The notes beneath the pieces are model-generated. The model was not told the DNA's origin and ran no database searches. It saw only the letters and a program-made list of their open reading frames with translations. From the NCBI RefSeq assembly GCF_055900595.2, contig NZ_CM148325.1: a DNA stretch of 64,000 bases. One strand, written 5' to 3'. The first letter of the stretch is position 1. Each line of letters opens with the position of its first letter. Shown piece after piece: positions 26,569 through 61,520 of the stretch. The position numbers and the translations under genes were made by a program.

Positions 26569-26587
26569 TAGACAGGAGACAGTCACA

Positions 26588-28559: not shown

Positions 28560-28791
28560 CGAACGCGCCTGATGAAGATCCAGACGATTTAAGCACGGGA
28601 TATTTCGGCTCAGCGTACCGGTCAGCGGAGAACTGGACGACGTCACTGCGAAGCAGTCATTTCAGCGCGGCAGCCCGTCGGGGGATTATTTCTGACAGGT
28701 TTGTAGAAGCAATTTTGCAGTTTTGGCGCGAAAGGTGAGCGTTCATTAATTTGATTTATTCGCATCCATCAACGCTTTTAACTGCTCCGGC

Positions 28792-30876: not shown

Positions 30877-32991
30877 TCAATCAGCCACTAATAGCGGACT
30901 AGGGATACCAGATGATGAAACAAACAGCCCTTTTACGGCACGGGTTGCAGCCACATGCAGTAACGCGCGCTCATTAAATAATGCATCACGCTGTTCAACG
31001 GGATCATCGGATGCTAATGCTTTTATTTCCGGCACAACGCCTTCGTTAATCCCCACCAGGAACACATACTGGAACTCAAGCCCTTTAATACGGTGCATCG
31101 TTGCAACTCGCACGCCTGGGCGTGCATCGCTGTCACCGCTATCATTGCCTAAATTAAATGTCTCAATTCCGGCGTCATTGAGTGCTGATGCGTAGCGGTC
31201 GCAAGCATGTTTAGTACGCGCAGTAATGCAGATATCCTGAGAACGAACCTGATTCGCCAGCAATGCCTGAATTTGCTTGACGAGCGTTGCAGCCTCTTCT
31301 TTGAAATCTGCCGCATGCGTAATCATGGGCTTTTCCCCGTGCAGTAATGACAAATAATCATTACTGGTATCCGCTTCGCCATCGAGGTTATCAACCTTCA
31401 CACCAGTTAACAGCCCAACAGCAAATTGACGCGTCTCTTCTGTGGTCCGATAGTTAATCTTCAATTTTTTACTGCGACGACCACGGACGTTAATACCACA
31501 CTGACCAAGAACGACCTTATTGCGATAAATACGCTGATGCCCATCCCCGACAATAAACAGATCGTTGGGCGACTCGGGAACCAGGCTGCGAATAAGAGTA
31601 AATGCCGGGGCACCGATATCTTGAGCTTCATCGACGACAATACTGCTATAAGGTAGTTGGACCTGCTTTTCTTTAAACAGAACAATAGCCTCATGCATGG
31701 CATCGCCCATTTCGCGCAGTTTGGCACGCGCCATTTGTGCTCTGAATTCTTCGAAAACTGGCCAGATTTTCGCCCGTTGAATACGGGATAACGCTGTACC
31801 ACGTCCAACCCGGCTGACTTTGAGGTATTCCTCCCGGGTGTAAACCGCATTTGGCTGGACAACGCGTTGCCACTCTTCAGCATAGAAATTGTCAGGTAGC
31901 CCCAGTTCGGCAGGTGCCTGCTGCAAGGCATAGTTCCAGCATTTACGTCGCCCTTCATCGCTGTCGTATACCACGCGGAAATCATAACCGTGGCGTTTTA
32001 GTTGGTCGCTCATCCAGGCATCAATGTTAACGACGTCAATACGCGCCATCTCTTCTCGCGTACACAACCGCTGGAGATTAGCGCGAATATCTGCCGCCAG
32101 GTTACGCGTAAAGGTCGTGAAAAGTACCTTCTTACCGGGTTTATCTACCAGACGCTGAGATAACCACCGCGCACGGTGCATTGCAACAACCGTTTTCCCT
32201 GTACCTGCACCGCCCAGTACTCGTACCGGACCATTAGCGGGCGACTCCACCAGTTTTCGCTGGCTCGGGTGCAGAAATACACGCCATTTTTCTAAAGGCG
32301 CATTAAGCATCTGCAATAGTTCCTGTTCATTTTCAACGACATGGAAGCGACGTTTACTTCGTTCAATCGCCTCCATAAAGTCGTTGGTATCAACAGGCTC
32401 ATCACGATGATCGTTAAACTCTTCCAGCACTTCCTGGTAATCCAGCCCTTCTGCCAGCCAGTGCAGAGGTTCCCAGGCTTCTGCTGGCATTATGCTTTCA
32501 AGTTGATTAAGCCCGGCTTCATCGGTAAGCGCCATCACCTGATCAATAAAGACAGGCGGCACACCCAGGGCCAGAATCTGTTCCGCGCTGTAAGCTGCGA
32601 AGAGTTTCGGTTTATCAACCACCGTTTCCGCTGCCGGTTTGATATAGCTAATATCAATGACCTGAATCGCGCCAGTAACCGGGTGAATCGAACAATCATG
32701 CCGCCGCGCCCAGTCATATGCTTCGTCGTGTTTATCCACCCACATCAGCATATACAGAGCACCCTGTTCAGGTTTCAGAACAATGCCGCGATAAGTTTGA
32801 TCGATTCGCACCGAATGGACATTTTTACTGCGCGCATCGTGGATCTTTTCATAGTTAAGTCCATTACTGGTCGGGTCCTGACGGAATTTGGAGATGAATT
32901 CCTGCACCTTTTTTTGCTGTGCTTTTGGGATCCGCGCGAATGCGCCCAGAAAACCATCAGAAAGTGCCACCTTGGGCGTTTGCACCGTCAT
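30877..32991 (-). CDS. UvrD/PcrA-like superfamily 1 helicase with ~230-aa N-terminal extension (YjhR-like); last gene of the DISARM-like operon
   Basis: Walker A VLGGAGTGKTVVAMHRA, Walker B IVVDEAQDI, C-terminal UvrD_C-like motif ATMHRIKGLEFQYVFLVG; start overlaps upstream stop (ATGA at 32988-32991). Confidence 0.8.
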   Translation of the reverse strand: MTVQTPKVALSDGFLGAFARIPKAQQKKVQEFISKFRQDPTSNGLNYEKIHDARSKNVHSVRIDQTYRGIVLKPEQGALYMLMWVDKHDEAYDWARRHDCSIHPVTGAIQVIDISYIKPAAETVVDKPKLFAAYSAEQILALGVPPVFIDQVMALTDEAGLNQLESIMPAEAWEPLHWLAEGLDYQEVLEEFNDHRDEPVDTNDFMEAIERSKRRFHVVENEQELLQMLNAPLEKWRVFLHPSQRKLVESPANGPVRVLGGAGTGKTVVAMHRARWLSQRLVDKPGKKVLFTTFTRNLAADIRANLQRLCTREEMARIDVVNIDAWMSDQLKRHGYDFRVVYDSDEGRRKCWNYALQQAPAELGLPDNFYAEEWQRVVQPNAVYTREEYLKVSRVGRGTALSRIQRAKIWPVFEEFRAQMARAKLREMGDAMHEAIVLFKEKQVQLPYSSIVVDEAQDIGAPAFTLIRSLVPESPNDLFIVGDGHQRIYRNKVVLGQCGINVRGRRSKKLKINYRTTEETRQFAVGLLTGVKVDNLDGEADTSNDYLSLLHGEKPMITHAADFKEEAATLVKQIQALLANQVRSQDICITARTKHACDRYASALNDAGIETFNLGNDSGDSDARPGVRVATMHRIKGLEFQYVFLVGINEGVVPEIKALASDDPVEQRDALFNERALLHVAATRAVKGLFVSSSGIPSPLLVAD

Positions 32992-35900
32992 TTGTCACCT
33001 CCGGACAGATGTTGCAATGTAATTTCGTCAATTGGCCCGAATGCAACGTGCCAACCCCTGGTTGTGAATAATGGAATAAATTCTTGATTATCAATAATCA
33101 ATGCCCATTTTTGTGATGGCCAGGCGAGATCGGCTTCCGCAATAATTTCACCTTCATCATTTTGCAATTCGTAGCCGAGAGTCGGCGCAGAGAGAGAATG
33201 AGACTGAAGCAACGCGATCTCTTCAGCGCTTAATAAGCCAAACTCAATAATCTCAGCCCAACTTTCATCAGTCTCTGGTACTGCCTCTGGCGTTGCCGTA
33301 ACTTTAACGTCAACGCTTTCCTGCGGTAAATGCACGGCTTTACGGCTGGTAAAGGTCATATCCGGCAGGAACTGTAACAGGTTTACCAGTCGCCAGAAGC
33401 CATTGAGTCCCGCTTCATAACCGTCATCCTGCGTATAGCGATCGTCAAAACAGATATGCAAACGCAGCCAGCTGCGCATTTGTGCGACACTGGTCGTCGG
33501 TTTAATGGCTTGTTGTGGCAACACCGAAGCCAGCTCAATAAATTGCTGCGATGAGTTACAGCTATCGAGTAAACCACCAAAGACAAACGGTTCGTCTGGC
33601 AAAAGCTCTGCTAGCCGCCAGGCTGGCGCGTTTTCCTGCATTTCATAGGCATACTTTTGTTTCGTTCCCGCGTCCTGTGACTTCTTCACATCCAACCACA
33701 CCCAGGCATGTGCAGCAGCCATTCTCTGCCATAACTGCGTTCTTCCGCCCGGATCGGCGAGATAATCCAGCAGCAGTGCAAAACTGTTGCGTTCCCGGAA
33801 CGACGCTTCAAGGGCCGCAAAGTTGGTATCGTGAAACAGGTTATAAAACTTAGGCTGTTTCATATCCGGGTTATGCCCAAGCCCCAGGACATCCTGAACA
33901 TGTTTAAGCCCAGGCTCTTTGAGATCGGCCCACGTGACTGTCCACACCCAGAAATTATCGCTATCCCGAATCGCCTGGCGTTTTTGCACATCCTCTGCGA
34001 CGCTATTTTTGTGAAACGCAAAGCCATCAAGGAAAATAGCTACCGGTTTAATGGCATCAGACTGCATAAGCGGATATAGCACGTAATCCGGGCGACAAGG
34101 GATCCCCACTGCCTCTTTAGCGCCTAAATCCACCTGAGCTTTAAGATGCCAGCTCATCATCGGTTCGCTGCGGGTGTTAATAATCCACCCAGCGCCCTGA
34201 TGCGCGTAACTGCGACTGACAATCAGGTTTTTATTTTCTTGCAGGCAGCTAATAAACCGTTTTTCCAGCTCACTGCCCATCATGGCTTCGAGGGAAATGT
34301 TTTTGATGGAATCAATTACCCGTATCGAATCTCTTGCCTGCAAAATTTTCGCCAGCAAGAGACGCGCCTGATCGCGGGAGACATACTTCATGCGCCCACG
34401 GTCACGGTAAGCGTAAACGCAACGATAACAACCATCTTTATGCGTATCATGGTTGCAACTGCATTCCACTATCGCCTGATAGGCCAGTTCAAGTAATTTC
34501 AGCAAATTGTCGGGAGTGCGCATCAGCTCTTTAAGAGAACCAGTCCCCCCCGGGACGGTATCGTAAATCACCAGATACTGCCGCCAGGATTCGCCTTCAT
34601 TTTCCGGCTCGCGGTACACAACGCCTTTCAGGTGATCGACATTCCCCTTGAAGTAATGTTTAAGGCCGAGCTGGATCGCCGCCCCAAGAGAAGCCTCCAC
34701 GACACGGTCATTACTGTAACTGCTTACCGGGAGCAGAATTCGCAACGCTTCTGACTCCAGCTGGCGATAGAGATAGAGATAATCTTCGAACTTCGCCTTT
34801 TCCGGTTCCGTGCGATATTTGCAGCTCAAATCATGACGTGGTTCATGATCGCGAGGACGCTGTACCATGCCGCACCCCAGGCAAACTTTAAACCCGGTTC
34901 GCTTCTTCGCTTCTCCGGCAATCATCAACTCATTGGCATCATCCGCCATTTTGCCGAAGTTGATATCCCGCAGGGTGACTTTGCTTAAAAATTCAAAACC
35001 AAACGGAACTTCGCCTTCCTCAATCGCGTATGCCGCCGATACATCTTCTTTTTCGAAACTAACCAATAGCTGACGCTGGAAGAAAGCAGGTTCACGGCTG
35101 TCGCTCTCGTCGCTGATCTGGCTATCACGTGCGCTGGCGCGGGCATACACCTGGCGAAGTTTCAGCAGCGTGGTTTTTTGTCCGGCGTCGGCCCACCCCG
35201 GTGTGCCACATTTCGGGCAATATTTATGCTGGTCGCCCGTCTGGTCGATATTTTCGCTGTAGTTACAGTGGCTACAGATACGCCAGTTCTCCGGCTCAGA
35301 GACCTTCAGGTCTATCTGCTCAATTTCAACTTTATGCCCACCGGCATAGAAATTATTCAGCGGAGCCAGCTCAGCCAGCGCCGTTGATGCCGGGCGTTCA
35401 TATTCGAAAGTGGTGTTTTGATATTCACGCGCTTCCCCGCCTTCTTTACGCCGCCAGAGCACAGAACGTAACGTAATACCGGCTTCCGGAAAGGCGTAGT
35501 TAGGCAGCAGACCTTCATCCGTGAGGAAATTCAGCGTCTGCTTATTGTTGATTTGATTGACTAGCGCCATCAGCGCCTGCCGTTCTGAAGTTAACTCGCG
35601 CATATCGCTGTCAAAGTTTTGATCGCGCGGCGCGTTCTCCAGCTTATCGATACTGCGCTTGAGTTTATCGATGCGTGAACGCAGAGATTTGCGATCTTCC
35701 ACCAGCAGTTTTAACGCCTCTTCGATACGCTGCACCAGAGAGCGTTGTCCTGGCGCGCCCTGAAGATAAGACAACAACTGTTGGCGAGTTTCTGCGGCAA
35801 GATCGGGGAAGATCGCCGTAAATTGTGCAGCAATCTCCGCATGATGCTGTTCGATATATCTCAGTAAGTTATACGGAAAACCCGATTTACGCCCGAACTC

Positions 35901-38900
35901 CAGCTCATCCAGCATCTGTTTGACGTTTTTACAGATAGCGGATTCTGGTACACCGGTTTTCACCCAGTTATCCATACAAAAAGCTGCCAGCTGGCGTTCG
36001 AGAATAGCCGTTGCATTGAGGAAGACGCCAGGAGCCTGCACCTGGCCCTGCATCATCTCCAGCGGTTCTTCAAAGAAAAACTGATCGTGCGGGTTCCCTT
36101 CTGCCACGGTAATGTTTAACGCGTTACCATCTTTACGACCGGCGCGACCAATACGCTGCAAGTAGTTGGCCTGAGCAGGTGGGACAGAACAGAGTAAAAC
36201 GGTGGAAAGATCCCCAACGTCAATACCCATCTCCAGCGTCGGTGTTGCCGACAACAGGTTGATATTCCACGGTTGGTTGCCGCGGTAGAACGATTTTTCG
36301 GTGGCTTCGCGATCTTCACGGCTAAGCAGCCCCGTGTGTTCTGCGCCCTGCACGCGCGCGATGTCCATGTTCTCCCAACGCCAGGTCGCCATATTGTCGA
36401 CTTCCTGGTAACGACCTTCACAACGTAAAGAGAGACAAGGCGCATTACGCCACTGCCAGCCTTGATCGGCCGGAGCCCGGACAACCTCACGGCAACATGA
36501 ACAATTAAGCTGAACGACGTCACGGCTCACCACCAGCGCAGAAGGCACCAGTCCCCAGGCTTCACGCCCTTTGGTGTCAAAATCTTTTACTACTCCGGCT
36601 ATTTTCAACGCCGTAAACAGGCGTCGTAACACTGTTTCCGCAACGCTACTGATAAACAGATTATTGCCGTTACTCAGCGTGCGATTGATCCAATGCTGAT
36701 ACCAACTGGGGTTAGACTTCGCGCCAATCAGGCGATGGAAACCATTAATTTTTTCAAACGACGCATAAGCCGGTTTACGCGTTTTCGGACCGATAGAAGG
36801 CATATAGCGCGAGGTACGCTCTTTTTGCGTCATCATAAAGGTCGTGCCATCACGGCGATAACTTTCGAACGTCGGATGCATAACGGCCCCGGCCTGGCGT
36901 TGATACCAAATAACCCCCAGCGCCAGGTGCGCGACCTGCTCGACGCTCACACCGGACATCTCATCACCCAGCTCTTCACAAAGCTGTTGATGCAGGGCGG
37001 TAATTGCCGGATTAAAGCGTTCTTTATCCACTCCGGCAACGGCATAACCGGTGGCTTCCAGCGTACGTCCGATACGCGCGCGCAGGGTAAATTCGCTGTA
37101 CACCTCCCAGTCGAGGCGCAGGGAAACCAGCTCCGGCAGATCGGAGTTCTCCGCCAGTTTGCCTTCATTTTTCAGTGTCTGATAATCATTCAGCCACTGC
37201 ATATTTGGTGCGATGAAGTTCGCTGCAAAATGAGCATCGTCCGGTGAACGTTCACGCGTTTGTTGGCAAACACGCGCCGCGAACGCATCCAGCGGTAATG
37301 TCTCTTTTTCGCCAAGAACACTGGCGATTTGCCCACGAATCATCAGCGGCCAGGTACGGGCAGTAAAGAAGCTGGCACGATGCGCGGCGTCTTGTACCGA
37401 GTCAGAAAACGTAATCAGCTTTTTATGTTCGTTGAACTGGCTGCCATAAAGCTGGTGAATCATCACCGCCGACAGACTGGCAGCCCGTGACCCCAGAATC
37501 GAAATCCCCTGTTTGCTGTTGCAGTACGGGCATTCATTAGCAAACTCCAGCTCGTCCTTACGCTCTTTGAGCATATCCGGGATCAGTACCTGCAACAGTT
37601 CCGTATGACCGCAATGTCCACACTGGACGCTGGACTGTCGGTTCAGTTTCAGACAGATAGGGCACAGTTTCTGGTGTGCGCCACTGACCGCTTTTTCGTT
37701 GTTATCCGGGAAAGCAAGGACGATGGAGCGCCCTTTTTCAAAGAACTGGCGATAAATGCCGTCGAGGTCTGTTTCCAGCTGAACGCTTTGCCCATGACGC
37801 AGGCTGGCCCAGCCGGTTGCGTGGCAGTCACGGCAGTGGATAACCGGCAAATAGTGTTCGCGATCTTCCACCGCCACATCATCGGCAAACACCAGTCTCG
37901 GCGTTTTCGCCACGCTGGCGACCAGACGACGCATCTCACGAAGCCACAACTGGGAACGCAGTTGCACAAACGGCAACACCGGGCGCGCTTTCTTCGCCTG
38001 GAGACGTTTTTGCCGATCGTGTTCCGTTTCCGGTACTTCGAGACGTGCCTGCGCGATCAGCGCCAGAATGCTTTGCAGCACGCGTCGGGCATGGTCGGCG
38101 CTTTCTGCCAGCATGACCTGGAGATTTTCCAGACACTCTCGTTCAGAGAGGATCCCGCCTTGCAGATCATGGAGTAAGACATGCATCACGCTGTGGCGGC
38201 GTAACAGTGACCCCAGCGCAATACGCTTTTCGCGCCCGTCGTCGCTCTCCAGATCGTCCGGGAGTTGCAAGTCGCTGTCGGAGAACCACAAAGGGATTTG
38301 TCCGTTGAGATACGCCACCGGGGTAGCGTAACTCTGCGGGTCCAGCGCCGAAGCGACCTCCGGCCCCGGATACTGACTGTACGCAATGGCGTAATCCTGC
38401 AAGTACTCCGCTGCCGTGTAGCGATCTTCGCGAATAACGGCGTCATCGGTAAACGGCTGGTCAAAGATTGTTTTTGCGTAATCGAGCAGTTGCCCCAGTT
38501 CGTCGCCGACGGTAGCTGATGTCCCGACGCAGGCGAATCGTTGGTTATCCACACCTATGTGATGCTTCAGACGTCGCACCAGACAGGCCAGATCCGACCC
38601 TTGCGCGCCATCAAACGTATGCAATTCATCCACGACCAGGTAACGCAATGAACCGGGCTGGTTGTAACGCCAGAGCGGCTGATCGCCAGGGCGCATCAGT
38701 AGGTAGTCGAGCATTTTGTAGTTGGTCAACAGGATGTCCGGCGGGCTTTCGCGCAGCGTGTGCTTACAGGTAATGACCTTTTCTGCCGACATTTTTTTGC
38801 TGGGTTCGATTTCGCTGTCGCCGACAAACAATCCGACGGTCACCTTGCCATGCAGTTGTGGATCGCTGGCGATGGTTTTGGCGAAACGGCTGGCCTGATC

Positions 38901-44251: not shown

Positions 44252-44253
44252 GA

Positions 44254-47112
44254 TTAACCCTCCGCTCCGGTGATAACAGCAATTACCTGAATGTAGGGTT
44301 CTTTTTCAGTCGTCATGGTGTCCTCAATCCATTCGATATAGCTGTCAAAATTGTGTTCGATTTCGCGTTGTCTCTGCTCTTTACGGCTCTGCTTAACTGA
44401 CAATTGCTGTTTGTTATCGGCAAAATCCAGCTCAAGTTGGCTCAACTGCCGCCCACGCAAAACGTCCAGCTTTTGCAGATGCTCATTCAGTTGCTGGTTA
44501 ATGTGCGTTTCAAACGCATTCCGATCATGGATGAATACCTCCCGGGCATGAGCAATAGCCGCTTCCAGTAAATCCTGCTGGCGCTGGTGATTACGATCTT
44601 TACCGCCGCTGTTAGTCAGCTTGTTACTCAACTGCGGATGACGTTGTAAAAACTCAGCGAATGGCTGACTGCCGATTAGCGATTCACGGTTAAAGCTCAC
44701 CACTATCCACGGGTTCACCATCGGATGTGATTTACGGTTCGGGAATAACCCGGAAAGAATGAAGTGATCTTCATCGGGTTCAAGCAGGTATGGCAGACGG
44801 ATAACCGGTGCCTGATGACGACCAAAAGCCGAAGAGATTTTATCGTCCAGCCACTGCACTACCGGGTTGATTTGCCAGAGATACTGCACATCGGGCCAGG
44901 CATGTTGCTCACCGCGAGCGCGTGCAATCGCGTCGGTGATGACGGTTTTATCCTGACTTAAAAAGAGCTGCCAGTTCTCCGGGGCGATTTCAGGCGGTAG
45001 CTGGTTGAAGCGGCGGCGTAACTCCTCCGGTGCCACCAGCGACAAGGTATTATCAGGCAAGGTTTCATACTGGATAGTTTGACCACTGGCTTTCAGGTAA
45101 CCCAATGCTCTTTCACAGTACGCCTGTTCGCTGGCAAACAAGCTGGTGTCTGTTTCGATGACCATTGAGGCATCGCTGGAAACCGCACTGCATATTTCGC
45201 CAAACAGATCGTGTTCGGCGCTTTCCGAGACGTTGCTGTTCAGCAGTTGATCAAACAGGCTGGCACCATCATCCTGCATCATGAACTCTGCAACCTGCTC
45301 TTCTTCCTCTTCCTGGGTAAATTTGCCGGTAAACTCCGAACTGTCCCCAATGTTCTTCTGCGCCTGTTCGTCTTTGTTGATCAACACTTCCAGTACGCGC
45401 ATATCGCCATTGATCTGCGGTTCGCTGGCCTCGGTAAGCAGATAGCGGATTTGAGGCTGATGTTTTTGCCCATAGCGGTCAATACGCCCGTTACGTTGCT
45501 GGAATACCATCAACGACCACGGAATATCAAAGTGAATCATTTTGTGGCTAAGGTGATGCAGGTTGATCCCTTCAGATGCCACATCCGAACAAACCAGAAG
45601 ACGCAACGGCGACTGCGTTTTACCAAAGGCTTCTACGGTTTCCATCAACACCGTATCGCCCTGATCGCCGCGCAGCGTGGCGATCTGATCATCTTTCAAT
45701 TTCAGATCCGCTCGCAGTTGCTGTTCGAGGAACTCCAGCGTTTTAATGCTTTCGGTGAAGATCACCAGGCGATCTTCCGTGTTATTGGCTTTCCAGGCGA
45801 GGTCTTTTCGGATGGTGTCGAGCAGCAACTGGTATTTGCTAAACTGGCTGGCATCAATGTTATTCAGCGCCAACAGCAATGACTCCAGTTCGTTGATCTG
45901 GCTCTGGCTATTATGATCTTTACGGCTCTCAAGACGCTTCAGACGATTAGCCACTACGCTGGCACACGCCATCGGGCTGGAAAATAGCGCTTTTTCGAGG
46001 GTTATCTTGAACAGACGACCTTTGTTAGACTGGGCCTGTTCATCGTCATCATCACGGAACTGACTCTCAACCAGGCGACGGTATGCTTCTTCTTCGGCAC
46101 CGGATGCCAGGCGAGTCAGTTTGACAATATTGCGCTCGGGGAACTCGCCAGACATCTGATCTTTCACGTCTTTTTTGAAGCGACGGACAACCAGATTTTT
46201 ATCGGCAAAGTCGGCGTATTCATACTCTTTCGGGTTGGCGATCGCCGTCGGGTCAAGCATGTTCATCAGGCTGGCAAAACTTTCAGCTTTACCATCATGC
46301 GGCGTTGCTGAAAGCATAATCAGCGTATCGCTGCGCCCGGCGAGCAGTTTTGCCAGTTTACTGCGTAACGAACTGGTTCCACGTTCTGCGACGTTATGGG
46401 CCTCATCAATGACAATAATATCCCACCAGGCATTTTCCAGATGGTGACGATATTCAATATCTTGTTTCAGCGTATCGATGGAGATAATGGTCTTGTCAAA
46501 ATAGTGGAACGGGTTGTGGTTGGTAGGGATGCGGTTACGCACTTTTTGTAAACCAGCAGAATCCAGGCGGGTCAATGGGATCGCAAAACGGCTCCAGAAC
46601 TCCTTCTGGAATTGTGTCAGCATCGATTTAACCGCCAGAACCAGAATACGTTTTCCGCGCCCACGACGGATCAGTTCCGAAACCAGAATACCCGCTTCCA
46701 GCGTTTTACCCAGACCGACAGCGTCGGCAATGAGTATCCGCTGACGCGGTTGTGCCAGCGCCATCCGCGTAGGATCGAGCTGAAACGGCATGGAATCCAT
46801 CGCCGCCAGATGTCCAAAATGGACTTTACTGTCTGTCGGTACGCGTTGGCGTAACTGACTTTCAATATACAACTGTGCCGCCTGATAATTGGCGGATTCA
46901 TCTTCCACCAAATGCGTTTTTGCGGGATCAAGGATCTCTACTTTTTGTTCCAGTTTGGTCAGAAATAACCCTTCTTTACCGCGCACAAGCTCTGAAATAC
47001 CATCGCAGGTCAGCAAATACCCACCATCACCACTGTCATCCGCCCGGCGAATACGCCATTCGGCATCACGAATAACCACCCGCATACCAGGTGCATAATT
47101 TTGCTTATTCAT
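44254..47112 (-). CDS. SNF2-family helicase/ATPase (952 aa), DrmD-like
   Basis: Motif I LIADAVGLGKTLEAG, motif II IIVIDEAHNV, motif III LMLSATPHDG, SNF2-type motif VI FQQRNGRIDRYGQ. Confidence 0.85.
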   Translation of the reverse strand: MNKQNYAPGMRVVIRDAEWRIRRADDSGDGGYLLTCDGISELVRGKEGLFLTKLEQKVEILDPAKTHLVEDESANYQAAQLYIESQLRQRVPTDSKVHFGHLAAMDSMPFQLDPTRMALAQPRQRILIADAVGLGKTLEAGILVSELIRRGRGKRILVLAVKSMLTQFQKEFWSRFAIPLTRLDSAGLQKVRNRIPTNHNPFHYFDKTIISIDTLKQDIEYRHHLENAWWDIIVIDEAHNVAERGTSSLRSKLAKLLAGRSDTLIMLSATPHDGKAESFASLMNMLDPTAIANPKEYEYADFADKNLVVRRFKKDVKDQMSGEFPERNIVKLTRLASGAEEEAYRRLVESQFRDDDDEQAQSNKGRLFKITLEKALFSSPMACASVVANRLKRLESRKDHNSQSQINELESLLLALNNIDASQFSKYQLLLDTIRKDLAWKANNTEDRLVIFTESIKTLEFLEQQLRADLKLKDDQIATLRGDQGDTVLMETVEAFGKTQSPLRLLVCSDVASEGINLHHLSHKMIHFDIPWSLMVFQQRNGRIDRYGQKHQPQIRYLLTEASEPQINGDMRVLEVLINKDEQAQKNIGDSSEFTGKFTQEEEEEQVAEFMMQDDGASLFDQLLNSNVSESAEHDLFGEICSAVSSDASMVIETDTSLFASEQAYCERALGYLKASGQTIQYETLPDNTLSLVAPEELRRRFNQLPPEIAPENWQLFLSQDKTVITDAIARARGEQHAWPDVQYLWQINPVVQWLDDKISSAFGRHQAPVIRLPYLLEPDEDHFILSGLFPNRKSHPMVNPWIVVSFNRESLIGSQPFAEFLQRHPQLSNKLTNSGGKDRNHQRQQDLLEAAIAHAREVFIHDRNAFETHINQQLNEHLQKLDVLRGRQLSQLELDFADNKQQLSVKQSRKEQRQREIEHNFDSYIEWIEDTMTTEKEPYIQVIAVITGAEG

Positions 47113-47180
47113 CGGTTTTTCTGTCTATTTGGGGCAGTGGCGGTAACGTCATCCTGAAAAATGTGGCGCGGCACACTGCG

Positions 47181-47217
47181 ATAAAAAAGAGGGCCTTAAA
47201 GATATCATGAAGGCCCC
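47181..47217 (-). terminator. Rho-independent terminator between the Druantia-like pair and the SNF2 operon
   Basis: On the minus strand: stem GGGCCTT/AAGGCCC (7 bp, 12-nt loop) followed immediately by TCTTTTTTAT; located 120 bp after the 2107-aa gene stop. Confidence 0.65.
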
Positions 47218-47335
47218 CGGCAAAGTGACAAAATGGGAGGGAATGCGCATAATTTGCGCATGATTTTCAAACAAAAATTATTAAAAAGTGAGCTGGGTCA
47301 ACTCCCCTGGAAGATATCCCCAGGGGAGCAATTAT

Positions 47336-50300
47336 TTATCCAGCGATAACATAACTCCTAAGGTCATTACCCGGGGCAACAGCTCGCGCTCGCGTGTTTG
47401 CCAGCCGTTCAACTTGCTGCGGTACTCGCAGAGCAAAATCAAAGAAGGTGTCTTCAATACAGCGCCAGTAGCTAAGCCCCATGTCGAGCAGGACATAATG
47501 CTGACTGCCATCGCTGAAGGTGACTGTCAGTTCTCGTCCATGCTCCGTACTCTGGTTATCCCCCGTTAACCAGCTAATTGCTCCCGGCCACGCAGGCCCC
47601 AGATATCCTTCTTCAAGTAAAGTGGTCACAACCTGCTGACGATCTTCCTCATTAAGCCACGCGTTATAGAGAGCGTTGTGTTGGCGAGAGTTGTAATCCA
47701 ATTTTTTGACGCAAACAGTGAGGCTGGCGCGTTCCGCCATTCCCTGTTCAACCAGCTCGGTTAAGATTTCACCTAACATACGCGCCGTGAATGGGCTATT
47801 AAGATAACGATCGCTGTACTCAACATGCGTTATCTCTTTGTGGCGGGTAAATGCCTGCTTCCAGCCAGCGTGCTGTTGCGTGACTAACGACCAGAAACGC
47901 GAACCAAACCCTTCCAGCGGCCCGTCCAGTTGCTCGCAGAGGTTGATGCGCACCGCCCCGGTGGGTAAGGCGGGCAGTAAATCTTCTGCACTTAAGGTCT
48001 GACCCGAGAAGGTTTTTCCGGACGTTCCTTTAAGTGTCACTACTGGTGAGGACGCACTTTGTCCCCATAATTCACCAGGTGCAACGGTAGCGCTGTCGTC
48101 TGCGGCCCACTGTTGGCTTTGCCCTTCGCGAGTCACCTGCGCAAGCCAGCGCCCCTTTCCTTGCATGAGTTGCGCAGTGGCAATGGATTTCACTTGTAAG
48201 CGTCCTCCCGGCATCGCCGCCAACGCGGAAAGCTGATGTCTGGAGCTATCAGTTAAGTTTTCCAGCGGCGTGGCCACCAGCAACTCAACATTCCCACCGG
48301 AGGAGGCAAACTGGAGCAACTCTTTAAATAATGGCCATTGGGCAAAGTCCCACTGTTCCTGCGGCCCCGCAAGAACCAGCGAGCAGGAGTCATAAATCTC
48401 GCTGTTCAGGCATTGCGCAATACGTAAACTCAGAGGGTTAGTTTCAACCCGGCTACCATCGACGAAGTACTGATATTCTGGCGCGAGGTTAAGTCGCTGC
48501 AACCGTACATTGGTAAGCAGGGTTAATGCATGGTGACGATCTAATCTGTTGACATAATGCTGACTGTCGTAGCTGAGCAAGCAGTGGTGACAGAATTTAT
48601 CGCAACTGCAATCGAGCAATTTTCTGGCGTAATTAAAGACATCAGCCCAATGGTCGATCAATTGCACTGCATAACCTGCACCACCCGCATTATTGTCGTA
48701 AATGAAGATGGAATATCCGGTATAGCCATTGATATCGCGCGCTTGCTGCGTCGTCACGCCCAGCTCAGTATTTTCGATACCCAATTTATGCGCTAACCCT
48801 TCACGCAAAGCGACCGCAAGGGAACGCGCGGCAACCTCATCACGGATCAACAGGCCATTATCATCATTGAGTTGCAGCTCAACCATATCTGTACGACTGC
48901 TATACCCCAACCACAGATCTTTATGCACATGACCGTGGCACAATTTATTGCTCCCCTGACGATCGTTACTGCCCCCTCGCAACAGGTAATGCGTATTTTC
49001 CCGCTCTGGGTTCTTTAGATTTTCAGGGGTACGCTGGGGTTGAGTTTGAGATTCTGCCCGACCACATGAGAGGCAAATTGCGTAGCCGTGCCCAAATTCC
49101 CCTTCACTGAAGTGGAACAATTCCCCACTATGGCTAAAACGGTAACGTCCTAGCCCAGCATCGGGTAAAGAAACCCACACCGAAGACGGTACAAGAACAC
49201 GTGGATCTTTCCAGGGAAGTTGTGCAGGCATGGATACATCATTATGTGCCTGATAACGAATATCTGTCGCAAAACCAACAGGCTGTAAATAACGCTTCAC
49301 ATCAAGTTGCTGTATATCCGCTTTGCAGTGACTACATTCGACAGGATGGGTAGCACTGGTTGCCCCCGCACCACATTTACGGCAATGCCAGAACCACGGA
49401 ATATGATGATCGCCTGACAGCTCCTGCCCGCTGGCAAGTACCTTGCCAAGCATAATGCCCGAGGAACGATATACTTTTCCGCCCAATACCACATCTGCAC
49501 CAGGCGCATACTCGCGTAATGCTGTAGGTAGATCACGGCAGGGCAATTTTTCAATACGACGAGAAAAGCTTTCTCCCCCTTCATTAGGGTCAGCCTGAGT
49601 AGCTTTTATTGCGCGACGTTTTTCCAGCTCATCTGCCGTCAGATAATTGAAATTGACGACACCAACCGGGAAACCATGCCCTGGCAGGAACGCTTCACTA
49701 ATGAGTTTAGAAAACAGATATGCACCGCGATAATCACGAAGCTGATAAGCGATGGCTTTACCTGCTGGCGTTTCTTCCCACGCGCTGTTATCCGCTTTCA
49801 ACGCTTCGATATTTTCCAACAGTATCGCAAGTTGGCTTCTCCAGCGGATATCAACCTGCTGCATCATTGCTTGTGTGCGGGTCAAGAGCTGGGTTGCCGT
49901 CAATGACATCAGGACGGTTCCCTGAGTAAGGCGTTTAAGTTTATCCGCCAGCTGATCGGCCTGGTTATTTAACCAATGGAGAAAACGAAGACACTGGCTC
50001 TCATCACCTTCAAAGAACCATTTGCAACTCAGTTTTGTCGCATCAGGAACTTCAGCTCGTAAAAACAGACCTAAAACCAGGGCATTAACATGTCGTTGAA
50101 CAATACTGCTGCTCCCAAAACGAACCCGTGGCGCACTGGCAGTAGTGTTGAACGCCCAGAGGGGGTCTTTGAATACCTCCATTCCATGCGCCGTGTTTTT
50201 ACATAACGTAATGGCAGCAGATGCACTCTCTCCACGTCGACCCGCGCGGCCTGCACGCTGCAAATAATTTGCCGGAGCTGGAGGAACGTTGTTCATTGCC

Positions 50301-53300
50301 ACCAAACTCATACCACCAATGTCCACCCCCATCTCCATGGTCGTGGAGCAGTTCAGCACATTAACTTTGCCTGACTTAAATTGTTTTTCATTAAACTGGT
50401 TCTGCTCAGGCGTTCTCTGCGCAGAGTGTTCCTCCAGACGATACCAGCTATCTTTCAGGGCCAGTCGGTCGCTGCGAGTAGACCATAATCCTTCCTCGCG
50501 GGCATGTTGAATCAGCGCATTACTTTCCAGCCACTCCAGGCGTTCTTCTCGGGCGATTTCTCCACCACCAGACAAACGCCAGTGACGTACAGGAAGCTCA
50601 GGCATTTCAATCAACACTGCTTTTTCAGGTGCAATTTCTTTGCTACCCGGCAAATACGGAGAGTATCCCAGCAACGTGACGTCTAACGCACGTCGAGTAT
50701 AGGGGCAACGCCACACTTGCTTTGGACTGTAAAATTCAGCCTGTTGTTTAATATCCAGCTGATAACCCGACTCAAACTGACGTAAGCAGGGTCGAATTGC
50801 ATCCCAGACCTCAATCATTAAGTGGTTAACTAACGATTTCCAGTGAGCCTGCTCAGGTTGTATTGCCGGAAAGACTGCAATTAATAGCTTAATGACCCGG
50901 TTATAATGGCGATCGCGTATTTGTGGCCAAAGTTGATCACGTTTCTGCCCTTTGTTTTTTTTATCTGGACCCTGGAGCATTTTTACCGGGAAACGAGCCC
51001 CCATCCAGCGAGGGTATTGCTCGTTTTCGTAAAAAACGGCACTGTTTTCACGTATAAAGAAATCAAGAGTAATCTTCAATAAATTACGCCATTCCGCTAA
51101 TTGCTTATCGGGATCGGGTAATAATGTCTTCCAGTCCTGCGGGCAGGTTGTAACTTTATCAATAAATGGATAGTGAATGGCTACCAGACCCAGACTTTCG
51201 AGGGTCCAGGCATTTTTAGGGCGGCGACCAAATTCACTGTATAAACAAAAATCTGCAAACTGTTGTTTAGTAAGATCAAGCCCAGACAATTCTTTAAAAC
51301 TGCCTCTCATTCTATCGGCAAGGTCCACACTGCCAACCAGCTGTTCAGACAGTGTTTGCCATGACATGGTTTTCTTCTGCTGATTGCCAGAGTTAGCCTG
51401 GAGTATTTGCATCGCTTCAGCATGATCCGGGCTTAAGGAACTCACCATCGGCTCGATAATTTTAAGTGCCTGAATGTCCGCCGGGCTAAGCTCTTCATTA
51501 GCAACCATCGATTTTTTCAGCGCGTCAATAGAGTTTTTTAAAGGAAGGATAGAAAACTGGGCAATAAAACTCTCTAACAATGCGCAGTGTGCCGGGCTGA
51601 GCTTTGCTGATGGCTCATTAATATTGGCCAACTCCTGGTAGCAAAGAGCTCGCAACGTCGCTTTATCGGCATCCTGCTGTAAGCGGGCAGAAATGCGGGC
51701 AGTGCCCTGACGTGAATCCGTAAAGGTGAGCAGACGTCGACCATTAAACGGTCCTAACTGCTCTTCTCTTGTCTGCGGTAATGGTGAAAACTCCAGCAGA
51801 GTAGGAATAATTTCATTTAAAAAAAAGGGCGCGCCAAGTCGAAGCGGACGGAATAAAGGATTATTTTTTCGTTGGGTGTCACCACAGCAAACACAAGCAA
51901 AGGAATTATTACGTCCCTCACCTCGAGATTCCGGTCTTAACAGGTTTATTTCATAGTGCTTTTGCGCTTCACTATCAATTTTCCCCGCCGTCGTTTCTTC
52001 CAGTGAAATGATATATTTTTCACCATCGCTCGCAATCAGACGATCAAATTGAGAGTTATTGTCTAATTCGTCGTTGTCTTCATCTTCAGAATAAACATCT
52101 ACATCAAGAGCAAACTCATCCACTTCGGCAGCGGCGGGTTGCGCTACCAACCAGTTCGTTCCATCACCGCGCATCTCCTCTTTGGCAGACAAATAAGCTG
52201 AACCACACCCGGAGCAACGTAAAACTTCAAATACCGGCGCACCACAGTCACAATATTGGCGCTGCTCAAACCATACCTGACCAAATGGCCAGTCACTCTG
52301 ATTTAATTCATGTGCTTTATGTGAGCATTGTTTGTTTGAACATGCCCATAGACCCGCCAGTGTTCTGATAAATCCATGCATACGTAATGGCGTAAAAGCC
52401 AGTTCACCTTCTCGCGATCTTGCCATTAGATCGAGGAGTTGCAGTAGCTCACGGTGATTAATATCTGGCCAGGTTCTTCTGGCAACATTGAGCAACTCAC
52501 TCAAACGTACTGCCTGCCGTCCGGGATGAGTTAACGCCTGACGCAATTGCTGGGCCACACGGTAATGACAAAGCTGTTGGTAAAGATCCTGAGGGCTCAG
52601 AGATTTAAGAGAAGTTAAAGATGTGGGGTATTCATGACGAATCAGCGACTCCGATACCCGCGGTATTTGTCGATAGCCGCGAACCACTTTGACATCACGT
52701 TCTGTAACGCCCGCAAGATCAGCGACAAATTTAGCAAGCTCCTTATTACCTTCAGGAGAGTCTTCACCAATAGTGGCAGAGGTCGCGATAATCTGCACAG
52801 GTTTATCTGTGCCAGGTCCAACATTGAAAGCCTGCATAACACGACGTAAAAGCAGCGCTAACTCAGCAGCCTGAGAACCAATATAACTATGGGCTTCATC
52901 CAGGACGATATACTTTAACATCCCCTGAGACTTTTCGATGATTGGGGCATCTTTACGACGAATCAGCATATATTCCAGCATGGTGGTATTCGTCACCATG
53001 ATGGAAGGTGGTGCTTCGTAAATGGCTTCCCGACTCAAAGCTTGTTCAGGTACTTTCAACTGATCTTCCTGAACTTCGTATTTGGTATGCCGGGTTTCGC
53101 CATTATATAGCGCGAAGCGTATTTTCCCCTTAAATCCGCGCGTCCATTCGCGAAGCCGCTCCTGTTGGCTGTTAATTAATGCATTTAACGGATACAAGAA
53201 AATAGCTTGTGTCCCTGTTAGTGACTGACGGGTCGATTTTTGCTGACGAATAAGATCTTCCAGGACCGGTACCATAAAGCATTCTGTTTTCCCGGATCCC

Positions 53301-53659
53301 GTACCGCTGCTCACTAACAAGGATTTTTTGTCTTCCAGAATTGTTCGCCACGCAGTGAGTTGATGACGAAATGGCACTGGCGCTTTGCTCAATGCATCAA
53401 CCTGCGGGCTGGAGATCAGCTTGTCCCGCAAATCCTCCATTGTTTCATCCGCAGGCATCCAGCCGAATGTACTTTCGAATACCGGGCCTGCAAGCAGTGA
53501 CCCCTCCTGACCGGGAGGCTGAAAATATTGTGATTCCAGATAATGAGTCAACGACTTGCTCCGCAATGCCAACTGACTTACCACCGACCTCACCGCACGC
53601 TGATGAAGCTGATTTAGAAGTGGCGCATAATGCAGTTGCTGAACGTCCATCAATGACAT
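47336..53659 (-). CDS. druE: Giant (2107 aa) DEAH helicase with DUF1998-like Zn-ribbon C-terminal region; Druantia DruE-like
   Basis: Motif I LVSSGTGSGKTECFMVPVL, motif II YIVLDEAHSY, motif VI QRAGRAGRRGE; Cys clusters CRKCGAG...CSHCK, CLSCGR, CSCDKFCHHC; start overlaps upstream gene by 10 bp. Confidence 0.7.
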   Translation of the reverse strand: MSLMDVQQLHYAPLLNQLHQRAVRSVVSQLALRSKSLTHYLESQYFQPPGQEGSLLAGPVFESTFGWMPADETMEDLRDKLISSPQVDALSKAPVPFRHQLTAWRTILEDKKSLLVSSGTGSGKTECFMVPVLEDLIRQQKSTRQSLTGTQAIFLYPLNALINSQQERLREWTRGFKGKIRFALYNGETRHTKYEVQEDQLKVPEQALSREAIYEAPPSIMVTNTTMLEYMLIRRKDAPIIEKSQGMLKYIVLDEAHSYIGSQAAELALLLRRVMQAFNVGPGTDKPVQIIATSATIGEDSPEGNKELAKFVADLAGVTERDVKVVRGYRQIPRVSESLIRHEYPTSLTSLKSLSPQDLYQQLCHYRVAQQLRQALTHPGRQAVRLSELLNVARRTWPDINHRELLQLLDLMARSREGELAFTPLRMHGFIRTLAGLWACSNKQCSHKAHELNQSDWPFGQVWFEQRQYCDCGAPVFEVLRCSGCGSAYLSAKEEMRGDGTNWLVAQPAAAEVDEFALDVDVYSEDEDNDELDNNSQFDRLIASDGEKYIISLEETTAGKIDSEAQKHYEINLLRPESRGEGRNNSFACVCCGDTQRKNNPLFRPLRLGAPFFLNEIIPTLLEFSPLPQTREEQLGPFNGRRLLTFTDSRQGTARISARLQQDADKATLRALCYQELANINEPSAKLSPAHCALLESFIAQFSILPLKNSIDALKKSMVANEELSPADIQALKIIEPMVSSLSPDHAEAMQILQANSGNQQKKTMSWQTLSEQLVGSVDLADRMRGSFKELSGLDLTKQQFADFCLYSEFGRRPKNAWTLESLGLVAIHYPFIDKVTTCPQDWKTLLPDPDKQLAEWRNLLKITLDFFIRENSAVFYENEQYPRWMGARFPVKMLQGPDKKNKGQKRDQLWPQIRDRHYNRVIKLLIAVFPAIQPEQAHWKSLVNHLMIEVWDAIRPCLRQFESGYQLDIKQQAEFYSPKQVWRCPYTRRALDVTLLGYSPYLPGSKEIAPEKAVLIEMPELPVRHWRLSGGGEIAREERLEWLESNALIQHAREEGLWSTRSDRLALKDSWYRLEEHSAQRTPEQNQFNEKQFKSGKVNVLNCSTTMEMGVDIGGMSLVAMNNVPPAPANYLQRAGRAGRRGESASAAITLCKNTAHGMEVFKDPLWAFNTTASAPRVRFGSSSIVQRHVNALVLGLFLRAEVPDATKLSCKWFFEGDESQCLRFLHWLNNQADQLADKLKRLTQGTVLMSLTATQLLTRTQAMMQQVDIRWRSQLAILLENIEALKADNSAWEETPAGKAIAYQLRDYRGAYLFSKLISEAFLPGHGFPVGVVNFNYLTADELEKRRAIKATQADPNEGGESFSRRIEKLPCRDLPTALREYAPGADVVLGGKVYRSSGIMLGKVLASGQELSGDHHIPWFWHCRKCGAGATSATHPVECSHCKADIQQLDVKRYLQPVGFATDIRYQAHNDVSMPAQLPWKDPRVLVPSSVWVSLPDAGLGRYRFSHSGELFHFSEGEFGHGYAICLSCGRAESQTQPQRTPENLKNPERENTHYLLRGGSNDRQGSNKLCHGHVHKDLWLGYSSRTDMVELQLNDDNGLLIRDEVAARSLAVALREGLAHKLGIENTELGVTTQQARDINGYTGYSIFIYDNNAGGAGYAVQLIDHWADVFNYARKLLDCSCDKFCHHCLLSYDSQHYVNRLDRHHALTLLTNVRLQRLNLAPEYQYFVDGSRVETNPLSLRIAQCLNSEIYDSCSLVLAGPQEQWDFAQWPLFKELLQFASSGGNVELLVATPLENLTDSSRHQLSALAAMPGGRLQVKSIATAQLMQGKGRWLAQVTREGQSQQWAADDSATVAPGELWGQSASSPVVTLKGTSGKTFSGQTLSAEDLLPALPTGAVRINLCEQLDGPLEGFGSRFWSLVTQQHAGWKQAFTRHKEITHVEYSDRYLNSPFTARMLGEILTELVEQGMAERASLTVCVKKLDYNSRQHNALYNAWLNEEDRQQVVTTLLEEGYLGPAWPGAISWLTGDNQSTEHGRELTVTFSDGSQHYVLLDMGLSYWRCIEDTFFDFALRVPQQVERLANTRARAVAPGNDLRSYVIAG

Positions 53660-58873: not shown

Positions 58874-58879
58874 TCGATC

Positions 58880-59587: not shown

Positions 59588-59590
59588 GAG

Positions 59591-61513: not shown

Positions 61514-61520
61514 GCGTTCA

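What the first reader, a model, noticed from the sequence alone, without database searches (positions are those of the whole stretch)
32988..53659. Two paralogous ~2100-aa helicase/Zn-ribbon genes within 15 kb of each other
Seen in sequence: the 2113-aa (32988-39329) and 2107-aa (47336-53659) proteins share the same architecture and near-identical motif I (TGSGKTECFM), DExH motif II and motif VI, plus similarly spaced C-terminal Cys clusters, yet sit in two different gene contexts (with SNF2+MTase versus with DruH). Inference: an ancient duplication or module exchange between DISARM-like and Druantia-like systems; the pair could also be substrates for recombination or act on a shared target.
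Basis: partly seen in the sequence, partly recalled or inferred. Interest (0 to 1): 0.55.

Follow-up and report, generated by a model that had tools for sequence, protein, structure and literature searches.

The report
Known ARMADA–Druantia helicase gene pair
The two giant helicase genes are real, distantly related members of one helicase family.

Summary
Both ORFs exist exactly as described: 32988-39329, 2113 aa, and 47336-53659, 2107 aa, both on the minus strand. They are true homologues. Family profiles align collinearly over 1410 columns (ArmC 45-1661 / DruE 50-1717, 22.8% identity, E 4.5e-77). The aligned span covers both RecA domains, the inserted Zn modules and the four-Cys MZB/DUF1998 domain.

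The last ~400-450 residues are unrelated. DNA similarity is limited to ~45 nt at motif I.

The upstream gene is DruE of Druantia type III, next to DruH. The other is ArmC of ARMADA type II, in the operon armA (SNF2) - armB (methyltransferase) - armC - armD (UvrD-like). The proteins are 99.3-99.6% identical to those of E. coli ATCC 8739. In that strain, published single and double deletions showed defence and synergy (Bell et al. 2025; Li et al. 2025). The whole 24-kb array occurs in about 10% of complete E. coli genomes.

Recent duplication and recombination between the two genes are not supported. Verdict: already known, low interest.

By-products that may be new: ArmC and ZorE share an unassigned C-terminal domain. 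In at least 12 other species, Zorya II sits inside ARMADA II between armB and armC.

The parts
32988..39329 (-). armC: YprA-family DExH helicase-nuclease of ARMADA type II (2113 aa)
   Evidence: ORF. Pfam DEAD 84-278, Helicase_C 993-1066, MZB 1549-1638. Only partial DruE profile hits: 345 bits vs 2173 for the true DruE. 99.3% identical to ArmC of E. coli ATCC 8739. Walker A K110 and Walker B D234 sit at the positions mutated by Bell et al..
38496..39080 (-). ArmC RecA1 / DEAD domain (aa 84-278) with motifs I-III
   Evidence: Pfam. hhalign RecA1 vs DruE RecA1, E 1.4e-53.
34416..34685 (-). ArmC MZB/DUF1998 zinc-binding domain (aa 1549-1638)
   Evidence: Pfam MZB, E 9.4e-13. Its four Cys align with those of DruE.
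33915..34262 (-). ArmC predicted Vsr-like PD-(D/E)xK nuclease (aa ~1690-1805; motif RPDYV...IFLDGFAFH...D..KR)
32991..33272 (-). ArmC extreme C-terminal ~90-aa domain shared with ZorE (no Pfam family)
   Evidence: BLASTP to ZorE: 40% identity over 57 aa. PADLOC ZorE2 HMM, E 4.5e-9. An HMM built from ArmC sequences only scores 45.7 bits on ZorE vs at most 2.2 on shuffles. No Pfam match.
47336..53659 (-). druE: YprA-family DExH helicase of Druantia type III (2107 aa; RefSeq start 9 nt downstream gives 2104 aa)
   Evidence: PADLOC DruE3 end-to-end, 2173 bits. PDB 9tu7, 4863 bits. 99.6% identical to ATCC 8739 DruE. Pfam Helicase_C and MZB.
48578..48817 (-). DruE MZB/DUF1998 domain (aa 1615-1694)
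   Evidence: Pfam MZB, E 7.9e-12.
47339..48493 (-). DruE C-terminal tail (aa ~1723-2107), two PLD-like domains per the literature; no similarity to the ArmC tail
   Evidence: hhalign tail vs tail, probability 0.5%. The PLD-like assignment comes from cryo-EM papers. The window sequence has H2040-G-R2042, not HxK.
53650..57009 (-). druH (YjiT family), partner of DruE
   Evidence: PADLOC DruH3, 2544 bits. NCBIfam YjiT_fam, 988 bits.
44254..47112 (-). armA: SNF2/BrxHII/DrmD-like helicase
   Evidence: PADLOC DrmD, 333 bits. NCBIfam DISARM_DrmD 349.7 bits, below the 610 cutoff. 99.8% identical to ATCC 8739 ArmA.
39329..44251 (-). armB: PglX/type IIG-like N6-adenine DNA methyltransferase; the variable target-recognition part is about 39902-40954
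   Evidence: PADLOC REase_MTase_IIG 957 bits, DrmMI 191 bits. 91.1% identical to ATCC 8739, with the divergence confined to aa ~1100-1450.
30877..32991 (-). armD: UvrD/GajB-like helicase with an extra N-terminal ~240 aa
   Evidence: Pfam UvrD-helicase 241-490 and UvrD_C. PADLOC GajB. 99.9% identical to ATCC 8739 ArmD. The RelE-like N-terminus is per Bell et al. and was not tested here.
57221..60694 (+). zorA-zorB-zorE (Zorya type II), third system of the island, divergent from druHE
   Evidence: RefSeq annotation of the syntenic locus. ORFs.
38974..39018 (.). The only DNA-level repeat between the two helicase genes (motif I); the partner copy is at 53262-53306, 84% identical
   Evidence: the repeat finder family D5. 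blastn: 40 nt at 87.5%, longest exact word 18 nt.

Best explanation
The two genes are armC and druE. Each is the YprA/MrfA-family SF2 helicase-nuclease core of its own anti-phage system, ARMADA type II (armABCD) and Druantia type III (druHE). The two systems sit side by side, with Zorya II, in the well-described E. coli defence island (O-island 172 / 'SPIDER' element). The two helicases descend from one ancient ancestor. They keep a collinear body: N-terminal strand, RecA1, inserted helical and Zn modules, RecA2, and the OB-connector-MZB canopy. Each has acquired a different C-terminal nuclease-like tail and different partners.

Shown by others: DruE is a 3'-to-5' DNA helicase that loads on 3' single-stranded DNA. 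DruH binds ssDNA and acts as sensor. All four ARMADA genes and the ArmC Walker motifs are needed for non-abortive defence. The two systems protect synergistically.

Inferred: ArmC works like DruE as an ssDNA-loading translocase that brings a Vsr-like nuclease to phage DNA. ArmB methylation (with ArmA) marks self DNA. The synergy arises from action on shared phage DNA intermediates rather than from a stable ArmC-DruE complex.
For: Identity of the genes:
- PADLOC, NCBIfam and Pfam hits.
- Match to solved DruE, PDB 9tu7, 4863 bits.
- 99.3-99.9% protein identity to the ATCC 8739 locus used in the published deletion experiments.
- Gene order identical to published armABCD/druHE/zorABE.

Ancient common descent:
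- hhalign E 4.5e-77 over 1410 collinear columns at 22.8% identity.
- Aligned Zn-Cys clusters.
- Each family has full-length orthologues at 35-41% identity in other phyla.
- ArmC scores 203-345 bits on DruE profiles but only 49 on DrmA. It hits DruE, a second large helicase and MrfA, but not DrmA, in the PDB.

Different tails.

Long-term linkage: DruH-DruE-ArmA-ArmB are contiguous in Enterovibrio, at 50% (DruE) and 52% (ArmC) identity to the window.

Prevalence: armC is in 525 and druE in 540 of 5426 complete E. coli genomes, and 513 carry at least 80% of the 24-kb array.

Function and synergy: PMC12458937 and bioRxiv 10.1101/2025.09.22.677730. DruE/DruH mechanism.
Against: - No ARMADA profile was available in the 2023 PADLOC library, so ArmC membership rests on near-identity to the published locus, gene order and domain content.
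- The ArmC mechanism (polarity, substrate, nuclease activity, role of methylation) has not been determined by anyone and is inferred by analogy.
- Homology of the central insert is weak when tested alone (E 0.0095).
- The literature disagrees on whether the DruE PLD-like domains are active or dispensable (vs 89).
Confidence: 0.93

Rival explanations
1. The pair is a recent segmental duplication within this genome or island: paralogues still diverging, one copy captured by a new operon.
For: Same length (2113 vs 2107 aa), same strand, 8 kb apart, identical 10-residue motif I.
Against: Only 22.8% identity over the alignable part. No DNA similarity beyond 40-45 nt. The C-terminal tails are unrelated. 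Each protein has much closer full-length relatives in other phyla. The same divergent pair is already linked in Enterovibrio at ~50% identity to the window.
Confidence: 0.01
2. The resemblance is only the generic SF2 helicase motifs, with no specific relationship.
For: The highest-confidence aligned blocks are the RecA1 and RecA2 cores. The insert alone is weak (E 0.0095) and the tails do not align.
Against: The post-RecA2 region up to the MZB domain aligns on its own (E 3e-14, 441 columns). 14 Cys in Zn clusters are aligned. The alignment is one collinear block of 1410 columns. ArmC scores 203-345 bits on DruE profiles versus 25-105 on other helicase families.
Confidence: 0.02
3. The two genes serve as substrates for homologous recombination or gene conversion, generating chimeric helicases or deleting the intervening armAB.
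For: Direct orientation. A 45-nt stretch of 84% identity at motif I.
Against: The longest exact shared word is 18 nt. From general knowledge, this is below the ~25-nt minimum usually cited for efficient RecA-dependent recombination. 513 of 5426 complete E. coli genomes carry at least 80% of the 24-kb array, and no hybrid or deletion form appeared among the hits listed in the three searches, which were not screened specifically for one.
Confidence: 0.02
4. ArmC and DruE assemble into mixed oligomers, because they are homologous and DruE works as a dimer. This physical complex would explain the ARMADA-Druantia synergy.
For: DruE dimerisation is required for defence. The two systems are synergistic and co-inherited. 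The core folds are homologous.
Against: The DruE protruding four-helix subdomain, which is essential for dimerisation (P680-Q758 in 2104-aa numbering), falls in a stretch where ArmC lacks about 50 residues: ArmC 701-750 aligns to DruE 713-813. Each system defends on its own when cloned alone. For Druantia-Zorya, no constitutive complex was found, and shared DNA intermediates are favoured.
Confidence: 0.05

Closest known systems
ARMADA type II, ArmC (Bell et al. 2025, PMC12458937; Li et al. 2025, bioRxiv 10.1101/2025.09.22.677730)
   Same: Gene 32988-39329 is this protein. It is 99.3% identical to ArmC of ATCC 8739. The armA-armB-armC-armD order, the overlapping stop/start codons, K110/D234, the MZB domain and the Vsr-like tail all match.
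   Different: Nothing material. ArmB in this window carries a different variable (target-recognition) region: 91% identity overall, 36-74% in aa ~1100-1450.
Druantia type III(-A), DruE/DruH (Doron et al. 2018; 2026 cryo-EM preprints; PDB 9tu7)
   Same: Gene 47336-53659 is DruE (2173-bit end-to-end profile match, 4863 bits to 9tu7) with DruH directly upstream. ArmC shares the collinear helicase body with it.
   Different: ArmC has no DruH partner, lacks the PLD-like tail, lacks about 50 aa of the DruE dimerisation subdomain, and gets only partial DruE profile matches.
DISARM class 1 (DrmA, DrmB, DrmC, DrmD, DrmMI)
   Same: ARMADA shares a SNF2 helicase (DrmD-like), an N6-adenine methyltransferase (DrmMI/PglX-like) and a YprA-type helicase with DUF1998.
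   Different: Helicase and DUF1998 are fused in one protein. There is no PLD protein DrmC. ArmA scores below the DrmD cutoff. ArmC scores only 49 bits on DrmA. A UvrD-like ArmD is added.
MrfA/YprA DNA-repair helicase of Bacillus subtilis (PDB 6ZNP/6ZNS)
   Same: Founding member of the family: RecA1-RecA2-OB-connector-MZB with a four-Cys zinc site. Both window proteins hit it (71-74 bits).
   Different: MrfA has 751 aa and works in repair with the MrfB exonuclease. It lacks the ~700-aa insert, the extra Zn modules and the nuclease tails.

Membership tests
YprA/MrfA-like SF2 helicases | DEAD/DExH RecA1 plus Helicase_C RecA2 core | tested here: met
   ArmC: Pfam DEAD and Helicase_C. DruE: Helicase_C by Pfam; RecA1 was not scanned against Pfam but aligns to ArmC RecA1 at E 1.4e-53. 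Motifs I, II, III, V and VI are aligned.
YprA/MrfA-like SF2 helicases | C-terminal MZB/DUF1998 domain with a four-Cys zinc site | tested here: met
   Pfam MZB, E 9e-13 (ArmC) and 8e-12 (DruE). The four Cys are invariant in both families and aligned.
YprA/MrfA-like SF2 helicases | Sequence relationship to MrfA itself | tested here: met
   phmmer hit to PDB 6znp (YprA): E 4.7e-20 (ArmC) and 2.3e-19 (DruE).
Druantia type III DruE | End-to-end match to the DruE3 profile | tested here: met
   For 47336-53659: PDLC00037 2173 bits, residues 9-2105. For 32988-39329: NOT met, 345 bits in two partial stretches.
Druantia type III DruE | Adjacent druH (YjiT family) in the same operon | tested here: met
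   For 47336-53659: DruH3 2544 bits, with a 10-nt overlap with druE. For 32988-39329: not met, its upstream neighbour is a methyltransferase.
Druantia type III DruE | Two C-terminal PLD-like domains (subtype III-A) | not tested
   Taken from the cryo-EM literature for the 99.6%-identical protein. Here it was only shown that the tail does not resemble the ArmC tail and that it carries H-G-R rather than HxK.
ARMADA type II | Gene order: SNF2 (ArmA) - PglX-like methyltransferase (ArmB) - YprA helicase (ArmC) - UvrD/GajB-like helicase (ArmD), co-directional | tested here: met
   ORFs 44254-47112, 39329-44251, 32988-39329 and 30877-32991, all on the minus strand, with 0-4 nt overlaps or gaps. Domain hits.
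ARMADA type II | ArmC belongs to the ARMADA clade of the YprA tree | tested here: inconclusive
   No ARMADA profile exists in PADLOC v2.0.0 and no tree was built here. As a substitute: 99.3% identity to ArmC of ATCC 8739, the strain tested by Bell et al., and 98.7% DNA identity to O157:H7 strains.
ARMADA type II | Vsr-type PD-(D/E)xK nuclease domain after the MZB domain | tested here: inconclusive
ARMADA type II | ArmD carries an N-terminal RelE-like domain | not tested
   An extra ~240 aa lies N-terminal of the UvrD domain. Pfam gives no RelE hit. The assignment is from Bell et al..
DISARM class 1 | DrmA helicase and DrmB (DUF1998) encoded as separate genes | tested here: not met
   The helicase and MZB domains are in one 2113-aa ORF. 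DrmA profiles score 46-49 bits only.
DISARM class 1 | DrmD equivalog | tested here: not met
   NCBIfam DISARM_DrmD scores 349.7 bits, below the curated cutoff of 610.
DISARM class 1 | PLD nuclease DrmC | tested here: not met
   There is no separate PLD ORF in the armABCD operon and no PLD-fold match for the ArmC tail.

The most novel reading that the evidence does not exclude
Zorya II and the ArmC-ArmD half of ARMADA II may be an evolutionarily and functionally coupled unit. ZorE and ArmC end in the same unassigned ~85-aa PD-(D/E)xK-like domain. In at least 12 species, zorABE lies inside ARMADA II between armB and armC, often within 105 nt of armC. On this reading, the C-terminal extension of ZorE that a 2026 preprint attributes to association with Druantia III would really be an ARMADA-type module. 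Through it, the nucleases of the island would be directed to the same phage DNA intermediate or the same partner. This would make the three-system island one integrated machine, not three neighbours.
Probability: 0.2. Interest if true: 0.55.

Novelty: already known. Interest (0 to 1): 0.15.

Why it matters
[quoted passage not shown] The YprA helicase family links DISARM, Dpd, ARMADA and Druantia. This finding adds nothing new about the pair itself. What remains open is the biochemical mechanism of ArmC/ARMADA and the physical basis of the synergy. The shared ArmC/ZorE terminal domain and the Zorya-inside-ARMADA layouts found here give concrete handles for testing that.

Tried and rejected
- Pfam finds nothing in the ArmC tail or in the shared C-terminal domain.
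- hhalign of the central insert alone is weak (E 0.0095). Tails and N-termini show nothing.
- The viral-contig scan for ZorE gave only three usable loci, none with ARMADA or Druantia genes nearby. So the ZorE-ARMADA link is frequent, not universal.
- The test of whether the ZorE C-terminal domain tracks ARMADA adjacency was not significant: 21/54 vs 0/5, Fisher p = 0.15.
- I could not see more than 10 kb around ZorE. So I could not determine whether Druantia III lies upstream of armA in the nested loci, as it does in Enterovibrio.
- No tRNA is present in the window, so the element's attachment site is not here.
- A recent-duplication reading, a generic-motif reading and a recombination-substrate reading were considered and rejected (see rivals).


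Full report
**1. Observation**

- BLASTP between them gives two significant blocks. One is 30% identity over 257 aa around the DEAD domain (E 5e-30). The other is 23% over about 720 aa, from Helicase_C to beyond the zinc-binding MZB domain (E 2e-25).
- I collected full-length relatives of each protein and aligned 24 and 23 diverse members (A1, A2).
- Comparing the two family profiles gave one collinear alignment of 1410 columns: ArmC 45-1661 to DruE 50-1717, 22.8% identity, probability 100%, E 4.5e-77.
- Tested piece by piece: RecA1 E 1.4e-53; RecA2 E 2.4e-34; the region from RecA2 to the end of MZB E 3e-14 over 441 columns. The ~700-aa insert between the RecA domains is weak on its own (E 0.0095). 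The N-termini and the last ~400-450 residues do not align at all.
Fourteen Cys of the first protein, including the MZB four-Cys site, align with Cys of the second.
- At the DNA level the genes share only a 40-45-nt stretch at motif I (84-87.5%) and no exact word longer than 18 nt.

The limit is that the extreme C-terminal tails are unrelated.

**2. What the genes are**

- The upstream gene matches the PADLOC DruE type III profile end to end (2173 bits). It is preceded by DruH (2544 bits; NCBIfam YjiT family, 988 bits). It matches the solved DruE structure 9tu7 at 4863 bits.
- The other gene gets only partial DruE hits (345 bits at best) and 46-49 bits on DrmA profiles. Pfam finds DEAD, Helicase_C and MZB in it.
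- This second gene is the third gene of a tight four-gene operon: a SNF2 helicase (44254-47112; DrmD-like but below the NCBIfam cutoff), a 1640-aa type IIG/PglX/DrmMI-like methyltransferase (39329-44251), the helicase itself, and a UvrD/GajB-like helicase (30877-32991).
- The 24-kb stretch is about 98% identical to a chromosomal region present in 559 of 5426 complete E. coli genomes; 513 of them carry at least 80% of it. armC alone is in 525 genomes and druE in 540.
- In RefSeq the region lies between the fim/nan genes and further defence genes, and it is followed by zorA2-zorB2-zorE.

**3. Literature**

- A full-text search shows that this array has been described. Bell et al. [quoted passage not shown]
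- They named the four genes ArmA-D and showed that all four, together with ArmC K110 and D234, are required for non-abortive defence. They concluded that ARMADA YprA homologues are closest to those of Druantia, a 'missing link' between DISARM and Druantia.
- They deleted ARMADA II and Druantia III singly and together in E. coli ATCC 8739 and found synergy. Li et al. 2025 did the same in EHEC EDL933 (O-island 172) and explicitly noted the DruE/ArmC homology.
- The window proteins are 99.3% (ArmC), 99.6% (DruE), 99.8% (ArmA), 99.9% (ArmD) and 98.4% (DruH) identical to those of ATCC 8739. K110 and D234 are at the same positions.
- Four 2026 preprints give the DruE/DruH mechanism. DruE is a 3'-to-5' DNA helicase loaded on 3' ssDNA tails, and dimerisation is required. 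DruH binds ssDNA and acts as sensor.

**4. How old the relationship is**

Each protein has full-length orthologues at 35-41% identity in distant lineages, for example Calditrichaeota and Desulfobacterales for ArmC and Geobacter for DruE. The two are only about 23% identical to each other. The split therefore predates the spread of both families. It is not a local duplication.

The pair is nevertheless co-inherited. In Enterovibrio sp. ZSDZ42, DruH-DruE-ArmA-ArmB are contiguous, with DruE 50% and ArmC 52% identical to the window proteins.

**5. The tails**

- The ArmC family tail has an invariant PD...D-G-x-x-H...D..KR pattern.
- An AlphaFold model built on 17 sequences is confident (pLDDT 84.6).
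- The DruE tail is PLD-like according to the cryo-EM papers. They disagree on whether it is active or lacks the HxK motif and is dispensable. The window sequence reads H2040-G-R2042.

**6. Mechanism**

- Shown by others: both systems defend directly, each works alone, and together they are synergistic.
- Inferred here: ArmC works like DruE as an ssDNA-loading translocase, but delivers a Vsr-like nuclease. ArmB methylation, with the ArmA motor, provides self-marking as in DISARM/BREX-type systems. The synergy comes from action on shared phage DNA intermediates.
- A mixed ArmC-DruE oligomer is unlikely. The DruE four-helix subdomain essential for dimerisation falls where ArmC lacks about 50 residues.

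**7. Verdict on the finding**

The finding is real, correctly described and biologically important, but already known. The recombination idea is not supported.

**8. By-products outside the finding**

(a) A domain shared by ArmC and ZorE
- The last ~90 residues of ArmC resemble the C-terminal extension of the island's own ZorE: 40% identity over 57 aa, and PADLOC ZorE2 HMM E 4.5e-9.
- An HMM built from ArmC sequences only scores 45.7 and 44.9 bits on two ZorE proteins, against at most 2.2 bits on 200 shuffles.
- A profile search of 1.84 billion representatives finds 1559 proteins with this domain. In all 150 hits listed it sits at the extreme C-terminus, in proteins of 68-2153 aa. It has no Pfam family.
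- A 2026 preprint reports that about 90% of Druantia-associated ZorE carry an unassigned 'nuclease-like' C-terminal extension. Neither that paper nor the others I searched link it to ArmC.

(b) Zorya II nested inside ARMADA II
- Looking up ZorE proteins that carry this domain showed zorABE immediately upstream of armC-armD.
- A scan of one genome per species with a ZorE alignment returned 80 loci. This sample is biased towards ZorE that carry the domain.
- Of the 59 loci with at least 7 kb downstream, 21 have ARMADA II genes directly adjacent on the same strand.
- Twelve of these have the nested order armB - cargo - zorA-zorB-zorE - armC-armD. They include Pseudomonas jinjuensis, Luteimonas arsenica, Aliidiomarina indica, Halomonas maura and Thalassolituus. 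In 7 of the 12, ZorE and ArmC are at most 105 nt apart.
- Only 5 of the 59 loci have Druantia III within 10 kb.
- The armB-zorA gap carries other defence genes: HEC-06/Orf5/SspE-like, HEC-05 and PDC-M72B.
- Bell et al. describe ARMADA II as having a 'strict gene order'.
- The link is not universal. Three viral-contig Zorya loci with the domain have no ARMADA nearby. The association of the domain with ARMADA adjacency is not significant in this small sample (p = 0.15).

(c) ArmB target-recognition region
ArmB differs from the ATCC 8739 protein only in aa ~1100-1300 and ~1350-1450, where identity is 36-74%. This is the pattern of a swapped target-recognition domain. It matches the armB variability reported by Li et al..

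Noticed in passing
window 32991-33272 (ArmC aa ~2020-2113) and 60422-60691 (ZorE aa ~278-367): ArmC and the island's ZorE end in the same ~85-90-aa domain. An HMM built from ArmC sequences only scores 45.7 bits on ZorE, against at most 2.2 on shuffles. The domain has no Pfam family and occurs in 1559 protein representatives. In all 150 hits listed it is at the extreme C-terminus. A 2026 preprint describes the ZorE extension as an unassigned nuclease-like region tied to Druantia, without linking it to ArmC.
   Followed up: partly
L019, L023, L045, L049, L057, L060, L065, L067, L073, L078, L079, L088 (ZorE at ~10001-11100 in most); also L002/L003, L008, L009: In at least 12 species-representative genomes, Zorya II (zorABE) lies inside ARMADA II on the same strand, between armB and armC. 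It is often within 105 nt of armC, and other defence genes fill the armB-zorA gap. Three further loci have zorABE directly upstream of armA-armB. Three or four have zorABE followed by an ArmD-like helicase only.
   Followed up: partly
window 39902-40954 (ArmB aa ~1100-1450): ArmB is ~100% identical to the ATCC 8739 protein except for two blocks at 36-74% identity. This is the signature of an exchanged target-recognition domain, so the methylation specificity is probably different.
   Followed up: partly
window 26533-27070 vs 60849-61387, and 28610-28792 vs 61397-61567: Long direct repeats (87-96% identity) bracket the ~34-kb defence segment. They include the 5' part of nanM. They probably mark how the island was inserted or exchanged at the nan locus.
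   Followed up: no
window 53650-60694 and 29713-30363 versus 30877-53659: Base composition is mosaic. druH (39.7% GC), zorABE (38%) and the UDG-like ORF (40%) are much more AT-rich than druE (48.8%) and armA-D (50-53%), even though druH and druE overlap in one operon.
   Followed up: no
window 29713-30363 (+): A 216-aa ORF lies next to armD. RefSeq annotates it as 'uracil-DNA glycosylase family protein'. It has only a weak Pfam UDG hit (E 0.004) and no PADLOC hit, and it is conserved at this position in the E. coli islands.
   Followed up: no
window 47113-47335: The druE-armA spacer has a 9-bp-stem hairpin (CTCCCCTGG...CCAGGGGAG) just after the druE stop, followed by a T-rich run. It also has a promoter-like TTGTCA-16-CATGAT site on the minus strand at 47231-47204. 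This suggests armABCD has its own promoter.
   Followed up: partly
window 53651-53659 and 47336-53659: RefSeq starts druE 9 nt downstream of the first ATG (2104 aa, not 2107). In newer annotations it names the gene 'motility-regulating DEAH-box RNA helicase'. A 2026 preprint could not reproduce the motility function.
   Followed up: no
window 47339-48493 (DruE tail; H2040-G-R2042 at about 47534-47542): The DruE PLD-like region carries HGR, not the canonical HxK. Two 2026 preprints disagree on whether these domains are an active nuclease or dispensable.
   Followed up: partly
window 61521-63180: Beyond Zorya there are further defence-type genes: an HNH/type IV-like endonuclease (61521-62171, minus strand) and an HNH-domain protein (62251-63180). 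RefSeq annotates the second as a phosphorothioated-DNA-binding restriction endonuclease.
   Followed up: no
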